From the NCBI GenBank assembly GCA_050247135.1, contig JBFWUT010000002.1, positions 61,850-125,849 of the forward strand: a stretch of DNA of 64,000 bases, in the 5' to 3' direction. Position numbers and translations under genes: made by a program. Below are positions 19,964 to 21,473 of the stretch, piece by piece (position 1 is the first letter of the stretch; each line of letters opens with the position of its first letter). The stretch is from Candidatus Berkiella sp. (lineage in GTDB: Bacteria > Pseudomonadota > Gammaproteobacteria > Berkiellales > Berkiellaceae). The notes beneath the pieces were generated by a model that was not told the origin of the DNA, ran no database searches, and worked only from the letters and a program-made list of their open reading frames with translations.

Positions 19964-20060
19964 CAGGACATCCAAAAAAGTTGCGCAGGACATCCACAAA
20001 AATTGAAACTTTGATGACTAAATAGATTATATAATTTTACAGGACATCCAAATAAAAAAG
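19964..20060 (+). repeat. three direct copies of the REP-like motif CAGGACATCCA(A/C)AAA
   Basis: Copies at 19964-19980, 19986-20002 and 20040-20060. The same motif recurs inverted at 21458-21473 on the far side of the Y1 transposase gene, and again at 29008-29117, 42842-42860, 37266-37282 and 37581-37595. Confidence 0.7.
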
Positions 20061-20068
20061 GGAAACAA

Positions 20069-20407
20069 ATGACTGATTACATTAGCTTTGATGATTTTAC
20101 GAAAATCCAAATGCACGCAGGCACCATTATTAAAGCCGCAATCAATGATAAGGCTAAAAAGCCTGCTTATGTGTTGGAAATAGATTTTGGAGACTTAGGC
20201 ATTAAAACAAGCTCTGCCCAAATTACAGAGCACTATACACCTGCGGATTTGGTAGGACGTCAAATCATTGCTGTGCTTAATTTTCCTCCTAAAAAGGTAG
20301 CAGGAATTACTTCTGAAGTATTAGTACTTGCTTGTGTCTCACCTATTAGTGGCACAATATTGTTGCATCCTTCTAAAACAGTCCCTAACGGTAGCCCTGT
20401 TTTATAG
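20069..20407 (+). CDS. csaA: tRNA-binding domain protein (CsaA/Trbp111-like)
   Basis: 112 aa. The sequence ISFDDFTKIQMHAGTIIKAAINDKAKKPAYVLEIDFGDLGIKTSSAQI is typical of the CsaA/MetRS C-terminal-like tRNA-binding OB fold. Confidence 0.75.
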   Translation: MTDYISFDDFTKIQMHAGTIIKAAINDKAKKPAYVLEIDFGDLGIKTSSAQITEHYTPADLVGRQIIAVLNFPPKKVAGITSEVLVLACVSPISGTILLHPSKTVPNGSPVL

Positions 20408-21397
20408 TGATGAAGCCATAAAGCATTTTTGTGCCGTCTGGATCCCTTTTGGACCATAGTTGCGACAGTCTCGATTAAATTCTAGTAGTACAGCACTATG
20501 TCCGATGGCATAAGAAAAACGGGATTGTAAATGTCGAACCATATTAAGCCATTCATTAGGATTGAGTTGCAACCTCGTCAGAATGGGGATTATATTCTGC
20601 GGAATGCTCCCCCTTTTGCCTTCTCTTATTATCCGTCCGGTTTTATCAACCAAATCTACATAATCAGACAGTTTAAACTCAACACAAGGAATTTTTTGTT
20701 TAGATAAATCATGATTAGTAAAGGGCATCAAATGTTTAGGCTGTTTTGTGTTATCAATAGATTTGGAATTATTCAATTGTTTTGCTAAACACTGTAATCT
20801 TTCTTGAATTGAGGTAAAATCAGAATTTTCAAGCGACTCTGCCACTTTTGCACGAATAGGGTTTAAATCGACATAGGCCATGGCGCTTAAAATAGCACCT
20901 TCATCCAATAAGGCTTGTGATTTAAAGCGCCCTTCCCAGAATCGCCCTTTGGTTTCATCTTCTTTATTAGAGGCGCGTGCAATTTTTTCATTTAAACATC
21001 GCATGTACCAGCTAATATCCATTAATCGATGTCGCCAAAGTGCTATTTTATAGGTGGCTTCTTTTTTAGAATAAGTACTCAGTAATTTGGCATCTTTAGG
21101 AAATAATTCTGCCCAACGCGCTTGCACCTCTTTATCAGTCCATTGTGATGCCATTTCATCATTAACATATAAAACCAAATGATAATGATTACTCATCACC
21201 GCATATGCACAAACATGAATGGCAAAGATACTCGCTAAGTATTTGATGCGAGACACTATCCAAGGTTTACGGTGTGAGTAGTCACGACCTGTTGAACCAT
21301 CAAAACCGCACAGGTACGAACGGCGAACACAACGGGTCATACAATGATAATAAGGAGTTGCACTGAGATCGATTTGATTGGAGCGGGCTGTGGTCAT
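20402..21397 (-). mobile_element. IS200/IS605-like Y1 (HUH) transposase, long-form REP-associated tyrosine transposase (RAYT)-like
   Basis: HuH motif VMSNHYHLVLYV. The C-terminal region RFWEGRFKSQALLDEGAILSAMAYVDLNPIRAK matches the Y1 catalytic-Tyr segment. It is flanked at 19964-20060 and 21458-21473 by inverted copies of the CAGGACATCCAAA motif. I placed the start at the ATG at 21397 (MTTARS); the ORF-track start is 21451. Confidence 0.7.
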
Positions 21398-21457
21398 ATG
21401 AAAACATCCTGTACTGCAATACGTGTAATATATGCATATTTTGTGCAGCAATCAAAT

Positions 21458-21473
21458 ATTTTTGGATGTCCTG
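21458..21473 (-). repeat. inverted copy of the REP-like motif (CAGGACATCCAAAAAT on the minus strand)
   Basis: The plus strand reads ATTTTTGGATGTCCTG. It is in inverted orientation relative to the three copies at 19964-20060 and brackets the Y1 transposase gene. Confidence 0.7.

What the first reader, a model, noticed from the sequence alone, without database searches (positions are those of the whole stretch)
19964..21473. REP-like CAGGACATCCAAA repeat family bracketing a long-form Y1 (RAYT-like) transposase
Three direct copies (19964-20060) and one inverted copy (21458-21473) of the same 13-16 nt motif flank a 331-349 aa IS200-like HuH/Y1 transposase gene. More copies occur as an inverted doublet about 50 nt apart right at the zur stop codon (29008-29090), with degenerate copies at 29100-29117 and 42842-42860. 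A lone domesticated Y1 transposase with inverted flanking repeats and dispersed doublets downstream of genes is the REP/RAYT (BIME) signature. This RAYT is unusually long, with an N-terminal extension of about 60 aa and a C-terminal extension of about 140 aa.
Basis: seen in the sequence. Interest (0 to 1): 0.6.

Follow-up and report, generated by a model that had tools for sequence, protein, structure and literature searches.

The report
Inverted-repeat-bounded Y1 transposase element with scattered ends
The 13-base repeat is real and marks the two ends of an old, resident copy of a long Y1 (HUH) transposase element; the same 9-base core flanks this transposase family across many Gammaproteobacteria, which gives the family a DNA partner that earlier surveys did not find.

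Summary
The core of CAGGACATCCAAA is GGACAYCCA. The 13-mer occurs 10 times in the window against 1.9 expected.

The 331-aa protein has a RAYT-like Y1/HUH fold and carries every sequence signature of TnpAY1 subclass 2.3 (Quentin 2018). That paper reported no flanking REPs for this subclass.

Single motif copies do not fold, so they are not REP palindromes. They are short terminal inverted repeats.

In 72 related loci (Berkiella, Shewanella, Colwellia, Marinomonas, Endozoicomonas, Chromatiales and others):
- 44 have a forward copy 50-140 nt upstream of the start codon (typically 70-90), usually just before a TTGA(C) box.
- 50 have a reverse copy 90-450 nt past the stop (typically 170-220).
- 38 have both, against 0 in shifted control windows.

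Two Shewanella copies are 94% identical exactly from end to end.

In Berkiella the locus is syntenic in three lineages and under purifying selection (dN/dS about 0.1). It encloses a csaA-like gene. Gene-less derivatives are scattered nearby, including a hairpin at the zur stop codon.

The closest known kind is the TIRtron/TIRYT of Di Nocera 2013. I rate it a new variant of that kind, of moderate interest. DNA binding and cleavage by the protein are inferred, not shown.

The parts
21461..21473 (-). Left (gene-proximal) terminal repeat, CAGGACATCCAAA. It starts 76 nt upstream of the Y1 start codon (the GACAYCCA core at -73) and has the same orientation as the gene.
   Evidence: The same position and orientation are seen in L001, L003 and L004, with a variant copy in L002, and in 44 of 72 family loci.
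21427..21455 (-). Promoter-like TTGATT-17-TATATT for the Y1 gene. It begins 5 nt inside the left repeat.
   Evidence: consensus match only; the count of such sites was not above chance. TTGA lies 2-19 nt inside the left end in 26 of 50 loci, against 3 of 53 right ends. The -10 box and 5' UTR block are conserved in L001-L004.
20402..21397 (-). Y1/HUH transposase-like gene, 331 aa, TnpAY1 subclass 2.3. Motifs: NHYH 70-73, WE 154-155, YVDLNP 175-180, TS 195-196.
   Evidence: dN/dS 0.03-0.12.
20069..20407 (+). csaA-like tRNA-binding protein gene. It is enclosed between the Y1 gene and the right-end repeats and converges on the Y1 gene, overlapping it by 6 nt.
   Evidence: Pfam tRNA_bind and NCBIfam PRK10089.1-3, 135.5 bits. 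Same position in L001 and L002.
19964..20052 (+). Right-end array of three direct copies (19964, 19986, 20040), inverted relative to the left repeat. Copy 3 lies between a -10-like box and the csaA ribosome-binding site.
   Evidence: Equivalent copies at L001 11337 and 11394 and at L002 11382 and 11401.
29008..29109 (.). Gene-less two-ended mini-element: one forward copy (29008, containing the zur stop codon) and two reverse copies (29075, 29097). The 29008/29075 pair forms a 14-bp stem followed by a U-run.
   Evidence: RNA fold -33.8 kcal/mol, z -4.87. Arrays at the same intergenic site in L001 (2296-2395) and L002 (2330-2485).
42845..42857 (-). Solo degenerate copy, TAGGACACCCAAA, downstream (on the + strand) of the minus-strand ORF 42121-42750; it also overlaps the TTG start of a listed 409-aa ORF (42846-44075).
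37266..37278 (+). Exact 13-mer inside a coding ORF, read as Q-D-I-Q. Its relation to the element is unresolved.
37581..37593 (+). Second exact 13-mer in the same ORF and the same frame. Its relation to the element is unresolved.

Best explanation
The motif is the conserved, subterminal end-sequence of an inverted-repeat-bounded element that encodes a TnpAY1 subclass 2.3 Y1/HUH enzyme.

The window holds one resident copy. Its parts, in order:
- a left repeat (21461-21473) immediately upstream of the gene's own promoter;
- the Y1 gene;
- an enclosed csaA-like gene;
- a triple right repeat (19964-20052).

The most likely mechanism is that the Y1 protein recognises GGACAYCCA at both ends and nicks and rejoins DNA there through its HUH/Tyr active site. 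Binding at the left repeat could also throttle its own promoter.

The other copies are gene-less derivatives made or maintained in trans by the same enzyme, in the way REP/BIME/REPIN relate to RAYT and TIR families relate to TIRYT. They are solo ends, direct arrays with an 18-22 nt period, and convergent pairs such as the 80-nt hairpin that probably terminates zur. In Berkiella this copy is old and vertically inherited.

Shown here: motif enrichment, the layout and its conservation, the fold, the catalytic motifs, purifying selection, and end-to-end duplication of the unit in Shewanella.

Inferred: binding, cleavage, trans-mobilisation, and terminator or operator roles.
For: 1. Enrichment. There are 10 hits in the window against 1.86 expected. 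In 190 kb of Berkiella DNA there are 78 GGACAYCCA against 2.9 expected. More than 3 kb from any of the Y1 genes the loci were centred on, there are still 33 in 141 kb, 15 times chance.

2. Layout across the family. Of 72 loci with enough flank, 44 have a forward copy at -140 to -50 and 50 have a reverse copy at +90 to +450. 38 have both. Windows shifted by 1-5 kb give 2-3, 2-6 and 0. The opposite orientation gives 4 and 3.

3. Unbiased test. The longest upstream/downstream inverted repeat is at least 10 nt in 40 of 72 loci, against 4 of 69 controls, and it mostly contains the core.

4. Covariation. Both ends share locus-specific variants: GACAGCCA at both ends of L006 and L010, and 16-nt matches in L012 and L051.

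5. Unit of duplication. Two copies in Shewanella metallivivens are 93.8% identical over 1286 nt, from -85 to +222, which is end to end. L024 and L039 are 91% identical from -71 to +213.

6. Independent data. All 10 metagenome stretches that hold a Y1 homologue with enough flank show the same layout.

7. Polarity of neighbouring copies. Convergent pairs number 8 and divergent pairs 1. Direct arrays have an 18-22 nt period.

9. Location. 40 of 45 copies in L001-L005 are intergenic (gene calls, with positions).
Against: - No binding or cleavage was tested, and the cleavage position is unknown.
- The motif is not a hairpin, whereas all characterised Y1 transposases (IS608, ISDra2, E. coli RAYT) recognise hairpins.
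- The ends are inverted, so the same word lies on opposite strands at the two ends. This does not fit the same-strand IS200/IS605 mechanism.
- In the Berkiella lineage no recent movement is seen. The locus and the zur mini-element are conserved in position in three species, so the repeats could now serve only regulatory roles.
- About a third of family loci lack a recognisable core copy at one end under my pattern (variant cores such as GCCACCCA exist).
- All Berkiella DNA sampled lies within about 10-40 kb of a Y1 gene, so a genome-wide spread is extrapolated.
- The promoter match is no better than chance on its own.
Confidence: 0.62

Rival explanations
1. The motif arrays are host repeats that act as landing pads. 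Y1 elements insert into the centre of convergent motif pairs, as some IS target REP/BIME, so the flanking copies are targets and not ends.
For: Convergent pairs without any gene are common. Insertion into the middle of such a pair would give the observed forward ... reverse flanks. Arrays occur in many contigs with no Y1 gene in the fetched stretch (107 of 120).
Against: The distances from the coding sequence are fixed across taxa that share only 43-65% protein identity (typically -70 to -90 and +170 to +220). The left copy is fused to the gene's -35-like box. The two ends covary beyond the core within a locus. Identity between intragenomic copies includes the motif plus 11-12 nt beyond it.
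Confidence: 0.12
2. The Y1 protein has been domesticated as a sequence-specific DNA-binding regulator or nucleoid protein. The motif copies are its operators (its own promoter, the csaA leader, the zur terminator region), and no DNA is cut or moved.
Against: The HUH and Tyr catalytic motifs are invariant across 37 homologues. The whole unit is duplicated end to end at 92-94% identity in Shewanella. Tandem arrays of more than 8 units and very different copy numbers between genomes look like proliferation, not a regulon.
Confidence: 0.14
3. It is a canonical REP/RAYT (BIME) system.
For: RAYT-like fold. Weak hit to NCBIfam REP_Tyr_transpos. Inverted flanking repeats and intergenic dispersal, with some inverted doublets that fold.
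Against: Single copies have no palindrome or tag. The RAYT model score is 38.9 against a cut-off of 80. The protein carries subclass 2.3 signatures, not those of 2.2 or 2.5. Several paralogues occur per genome. The core is conserved across orders, unlike REPs.
Confidence: 0.05
4. It is a host-level word unrelated to the Y1 gene, such as a DNA uptake sequence or the site of an unrelated transcription factor, or it is a chance pattern.
For: A few exact copies lie inside genes. Inverted pairs at gene ends resemble uptake-sequence terminators.
Against: The motif is tied to both ends of the Y1 gene in 38 of 72 loci across many orders, against 0 in controls. 40 of 45 copies are intergenic. Enrichment is 15-27 times chance.
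Confidence: 0.03

Closest known systems
TIRtron / TIRYT (Di Nocera, De Gregorio & Rocco 2013, PMC3733652)
   Same: A RAYT-like Y1 gene is flanked by terminal inverted repeats rather than palindromic REPs. The repeats lie at similar distances from the coding sequence in different species. The same repeats also occur elsewhere in the genome as singles, dimers or groups. The published consensus GGGGWSAS partly overlaps ours (GGACAC fits GGWSAS).
   Different: According to Quentin 2018, the published TIRYTs belong to subclasses 2.1 (20 of 26), 2.2 and 2.5, and none to 2.3. The core here is (R)GGACAYCCA, not GGGGWSAS. The core is conserved across orders. Outer half-site repeats and long tandem arrays are seen here.
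TnpAY1 subclass 2.3 (Quentin et al. 2018, PMC6006769)
   Same: The protein signatures NHYH, WE, YVDLNP and TS all match. Length is about 325 aa, and the HuH-to-Tyr distance (about 102 aa) fits the large spacing reported (median 110, attributed to an insertion of about 55 aa between beta3 and alphaC). There is a long C-terminal tail. Several diverged copies occur per genome. The family is abundant in Alteromonadales and Chromatiales.
   Different: That study reported no REP-like sequences around subclass 2.3 genes. Here a conserved inverted 9-nt core flanks them. Legionellales-related Berkiella is an added host group.
REP/RAYT (REPtron, BIME, REPIN)
   Same: A Y1 enzyme with a RAYT-like fold is flanked by inverted repeats. 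Its relatives are scattered in intergenic DNA, often as inverted doublets that fold. The locus is vertically inherited and under purifying selection.
   Different: The unit repeat is not a palindrome and has no GTAG tag. There are several paralogues per genome. The whole unit can duplicate. The protein is twice as long.
IS200/IS605 (IS608, ISDra2)
   Different: IS200/IS605 have no inverted terminal repeats. They use subterminal hairpins on one strand, a 130-150-aa TnpA and a Y---Q motif.

Membership tests
TnpAY1 subclass 2.3 (Quentin 2018) | HuH motif NHYH | tested here: met
   N70 H71 Y72 H73 are invariant in 37 homologues. The criterion comes from Table 1, read.
TnpAY1 subclass 2.3 (Quentin 2018) | Tyr motif YVDLNP and W motif WE | tested here: met
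   Y175-P180 and W154 are invariant. E155 is replaced by Q in a few homologues.
TnpAY1 subclass 2.3 (Quentin 2018) | TS serine motif in the proximal C-terminal tail | tested here: met
   F194 T195 S196 I197 are conserved.
TnpAY1 subclass 2.3 (Quentin 2018) | Length about 325 aa; HuH-to-Tyr distance about 110 aa, caused by an insertion of about 55 aa | tested here: met
   331 aa; H73 to Y175 is 102 aa; inserted helices at 80-124 in the model.
TnpAY1 subclass 2.3 (Quentin 2018) | Y1/HUH core fold | tested here: met
TnpAY1 subclass 2.3 (Quentin 2018) | Several diverged copies per genome | tested here: inconclusive
   B. aquae has at least four paralogues and B. cookevillensis at least three. MAG CAZQMV has two. 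Only one copy lies in the 64-kb window. The rest of the source genome was not available.
REP/RAYT (REPtron) | Flanking repeats are 20-40-nt palindromes (hairpins) tagged with GTAG or CGTC | tested here: not met
   Single copies fold no better than shuffles (z -0.91 to +1.14). No GTAG or CGTC tag is visible in the sequence.
REP/RAYT (REPtron) | Protein passes the RAYT model (NCBIfam NF047646) | tested here: not met
   38.9 bits against a cut-off of 80. Only residues 146-208 match.
REP/RAYT (REPtron) | Repeats flank the gene in inverted orientation and are dispersed in intergenic DNA | tested here: met
REP/RAYT (REPtron) | Hundreds of copies genome-wide | not testable with these tools
   A whole genome could not be read. 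The sampled density is 0.23 per kb more than 3 kb from the sampled Y1 genes.
TIRtron / TIRYT (Di Nocera 2013) | RAYT-like gene flanked by non-REP terminal inverted repeats at similar distances in different species | tested here: met
TIRtron / TIRYT (Di Nocera 2013) | Repeats share the motif GGGGWSAS | tested here: inconclusive
   The core is RGGACAYCCA. GGACAC fits positions 3-8 of the consensus, but the leading GG is usually absent.
TIRtron / TIRYT (Di Nocera 2013) | The repeats also form a family of single, dimeric or grouped copies elsewhere | tested here: met
IS200/IS605 | Short TnpA with a Y---Q motif, subterminal hairpins, no inverted terminal repeats | tested here: not met
   331 aa, YVDLNP, inverted ends, no hairpin at single ends.

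The most novel reading that the evidence does not exclude
TnpAY1 subclass 2.3 enzymes use a single, non-hairpin DNA word, GGACAYCCA. The word is conserved from Legionellales-like Berkiella to Alteromonadales and Chromatiales, and is found as direct arrays in metagenome contigs of 28-71% GC. It serves as the end-sequence of a distinct class of HUH elements bounded by inverted repeats. These elements spawn solo ends, hairpin mini-elements and satellite-like tandem arrays, and hosts then reuse them as terminators and promoter-proximal sites. This would be the missing DNA partner of a subclass described as having none, and a recognition mode unlike the hairpin-plus-guide mode of all characterised Y1 transposases.
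Probability: 0.4. Interest if true: 0.7.

Novelty: new variant of a known kind. Interest (0 to 1): 0.55.

Why it matters
**A DNA partner for the subclass.** The only systematic survey of Y1/HUH proteins found no DNA partner for subclass 2.3, the longest Y1 proteins, present at about four copies per genome in many marine Gammaproteobacteria. A conserved 9-nt end-sequence at fixed distances makes the biology of this subclass directly testable with oligonucleotide binding and cleavage assays. It also allows automatic annotation of the elements and their gene-less derivatives.

**A possible new recognition mode.** A Y1 enzyme with a short linear recognition word would extend the known recognition modes of HUH enzymes. 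These enzymes are used as covalent DNA-tagging tools.

**Relevance to Berkiella.** The repeats sit at gene boundaries: the zur terminator, the csaA leader and the Y1 promoter. They may therefore affect expression of host genes.

Tried and rejected
- **Pfam.** No significant hit for the Y1 protein. Y1_Tnp scored only E = 0.031 when the E-value limit was raised to 10.
- **PDB by sequence.** Nothing found for the full protein or the C-terminal profile.
- **Rfam on 19000-30000.** Only a chance snoRNA hit at E = 0.24. No known RNA family explains the repeats or the 3' spacer.
- **3' spacer.** The roughly 190-nt spacer is not conserved in sequence across Colwellia and Shewanella subgroups, so I claim no conserved RNA or structure there.
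- **Literature.** A full-text search for the motif returned only unrelated primer sequences. No paper after 2018 on TIRYT or TnpAY1 subclasses is in the library.
- **CsrA-site, DnaA-box-like and uptake-sequence readings.** I considered these from memory and dropped them once the motif proved tied to both ends of the Y1 gene across taxa.
- **Cleavage point.** I tried to infer it from the outer tandem repeats and from the truncated second copy in L071. The junctions are not consistent with one position.
- **Plasmid search.** The family is rarely on plasmids: 14 of 72,556 records, mostly replicons over 200 kb.

Full report
**1. The observation**

The window is from a Candidatus Berkiella MAG. The Y1 protein is 100% identical to an NCBI "MAG: transposase [Candidatus Berkiella sp.]" on a 167,572-bp contig.

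CAGGACATCCAAA, allowing up to 2 mismatches, occurs 10 times against 1.86 expected; 0 of 100 shuffles reached 10. Two more exact copies, at 37266 and 37581, were missed. Both lie in the 546-aa ORF 36138-37778 and both read Q-D-I-Q.

From 76 Berkiella copies the consensus is H-A-GGACA(T>C)CCA-A-A.

The gene between the inverted copies is 20402-21397 (-), 331 aa. A csaA/tRNA-binding gene (20069-20407, +) lies between it and the three right-hand copies.

**2. The protein**

Sequence searches say little. Pfam gives no significant hit. NCBIfam REP_Tyr_transpos scores 38.9 bits against a cut-off of 80.

The signatures that Quentin et al. 2018 list for TnpAY1 subclass 2.3 are all present:
- NHYH, WE, YVDLNP and a TS motif, the first and third invariant and the others conserved;
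- a median length of 325 aa;
- a large HuH-to-Tyr distance (102 aa here against a median of 110), which they attribute to an insertion of about 55 aa.

Between the window, L001, L002 and L003, dN/dS is 0.03-0.12 with synonymous sites saturated.

**3. Conservation of the locus in Berkiella**

L001 (81% aa identity) and L002 (77%) are syntenic with the window. They share zur-znu, the 860-900-aa ORF, two small ORFs, Y1 and csaA.

L001, L003 and L004 (B. aquae paralogues in other contexts) each have a forward motif copy 74-76 nt upstream of the start; L002 has only a variant there (AAGGGCATCCAAA). All have reverse copies downstream. The reverse copies lie beyond csaA in the syntenic loci and 133 nt after the stop in L003.

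More distant paralogues carry variants at both ends: GGACATCCA[CT] in L005, and GGACAGCCA in L006 and L010.

**4. The layout is a property of the whole family**

A scan of one genome per species with the protein alignment returned 80 loci at 43-65% identity. They come from Berkiella, Endozoicomonas, Shewanella, Colwellia, Psychromonas, Pseudoalteromonas, Marinomonas, Pseudohongiella, Hahella, Chromatiales and others.

Of the 72 loci with enough flank (the window, L001-L006 and these):
- 44 have a forward [AG]ACA[CTG]CCA at -140 to -50, typically -70 to -90;
- 50 have a reverse copy at +90 to +450, typically +170 to +220;
- 38 have both.

Windows shifted by 1-5 kb give 2-3, 2-6 and 0. The opposite orientation at the true positions gives 4 and 3.

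I also ran a test that does not assume the motif. The longest inverted repeat between the upstream and downstream flanks is at least 10 nt in 40 of 72 loci, against 4 of 69 controls. It usually contains the core, sometimes with 16-nt locus-specific matches.

The left copy is followed within 2-19 nt by TTGA in 26 of 50 loci (TTGAC in 16), against 3 of 53 right ends. In the window this is TTGATT-17-TATATT at 21455-21427. That single match is not above chance on its own.

**5. The unit behaves as an element**

Two copies in Shewanella metallivivens (L071, L079) are 93.8% identical over 1286 nt, from -85 to +222. Identity stops 11-12 nt outside the core on each side, so the conserved core is subterminal. 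S. canadensis and S. atlantica copies are 91% identical from -71 to +213, with unrelated flanks.

The family is rare on plasmids. In Berkiella, by contrast, the paralogues are diverged (59-75% aa) and this locus is vertically inherited.

**6. Dispersed copies**

In 190 kb of Berkiella DNA there are 78 GGACAYCCA against 2.9 expected. More than 3 kb from the Y1 gene each locus was centred on, there are 33 in 141 kb, 15 times chance. In L001-L005, 40 of 45 copies are intergenic.

Neighbouring copies are mostly direct with an 18-22 nt period. Convergent pairs are common (8) and divergent pairs rare (1). The gene-less copies therefore mimic the ends-facing-inward layout of the full unit.

Single copies do not fold (z -0.9 to +1.1). 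Inverted doublets do: L001 535-595 gives -11.2 kcal/mol, z -4.5. The window's 29008/29075 pair gives a 14-bp stem followed by a U-run, -33.8 kcal/mol, z -4.9, which is a plausible zur terminator. Arrays occupy the same zur-downstream spacer in L001 and L002.

L007 and L036 carry tandem arrays of eight or more units.

These hold 456 core copies against 9 expected. Thirteen stretches include a Y1 homologue, and all 10 with enough flank show the same layout.

**7. Further anatomy, unexplained**

Outside many ends lie tandem repeats, with periods from 9 to 31 nt (11-12 nt commonest), that many begin with the 5' half of the motif. GGACA occurs 27 times in the outer 45 nt against 2 in the inner 45 nt. 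Tandem runs abut the outer edge in 18 of 103 ends, against 1 of 103 on the inner side.

They could be half-site iterons or scars of repeated nicking and slippage. A truncated second copy in L071 begins exactly at the tip of copy 1. I could not fix a cleavage point.

Coding copies show a modest excess, by my count 7 against roughly 2.3 expected for the coding DNA sampled. They fall in several frames.

**8. Comparison with what is known**

The closest kind is the TIRtron/TIRYT of Di Nocera et al. 2013. These are RAYT-like genes flanked by non-palindromic terminal inverted repeats, at similar distances across species, sharing GGGGWSAS, with repeat families that occur single, dimeric or grouped.

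Quentin et al. 2018 place those proteins in subclasses 2.1, 2.2 and 2.5. They state that neither automatic nor manual searches found REP-like sequences for subclasses 2.1 and 2.3.

So the kind is known. The subclass 2.3 version appears undescribed in the searchable literature. It has a GGACAYCCA core conserved across orders, promoter fusion at the left end, outer half-site repeats and long arrays. This is not a canonical REP/RAYT system, and not an IS200/IS605 element.

**9. Verdict**

The best explanation is a resident, inverted-repeat-bounded subclass 2.3 Y1 element with gene-less derivatives (confidence about 0.6). The main rivals are that the motif is an insertion target, and that the protein is now only a DNA-binding regulator. 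Binding and cleavage are inferred. The decisive tests are a whole-genome census, filled/empty-site comparison and oligonucleotide cleavage assays.

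Noticed in passing
window 37266-37278 and 37581-37593: Two exact 13-mers 315 nt apart inside the 546-aa FAD-oxidoreductase-like ORF, both in the same frame (Q-D-I-Q). The protein segment between them looks like ordinary enzyme sequence, not an insertion. Orthologues were not fetched.
   Followed up: partly
window 21554-22192 and 22288-22860: Two tandem paralogous ORFs (212 aa and 190 aa) next to the Y1 unit. The 212-aa one has no Pfam or NCBIfam hit; the 190-aa one was not scanned. They are conserved beside the Y1 unit in L001 and L002.
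   Followed up: no
L001-L086 element ends, e.g. L041 upstream of 10001, L049, L015, L019, L064: Tandem repeats lie immediately outside the terminal repeats, with periods from 9 to 31 nt. Many units start with the 5' half of the motif (GGACA or AGACA). They are strongly polar: 18 of 103 ends on the outer side against 1 of 103 on the inner side.
   Followed up: partly
L071 (Shewanella metallivivens), about 1200 nt after the first gene start: A second copy, truncated at its 5' end from codon 18, starts exactly at the outer tip of the first copy's right end. This suggests an adjacent deletion or a nested event.
   Followed up: partly
L007 13870-14123: A tandem array of the motif with a 19-nt period (unit TTTGGATGTCCTACAAAGC) is interrupted by a 99-nt run of N in the record. 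The array is probably longer than read.
   Followed up: no
L087-L206 (metagenome contigs): Direct doublets and arrays of GGACAYCCAAA occur in contigs of 28-71% GC, with up to 18 core copies per stretch (L095, L201, L142). Most have no Y1 gene in the short stretch fetched. L163 and L196 carry Y1 genes split into two pieces (possible frameshifts).
   Followed up: partly
window 20040-20052: The third right-end copy sits between a TATAAT-like box (20030-20035) and the csaA ribosome-binding site. It would therefore be in the csaA leader or at its transcription start. The same arrangement occurs in L001.
   Followed up: no
L004 and L007, +1 to about +770 after the Y1 stop: These paralogues share about 70% nucleotide identity well beyond the Y1 stop. 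They enclose a small ORF (85 aa in L004) before their right-end repeats at about +400. This suggests a different enclosed gene from csaA.
   Followed up: no
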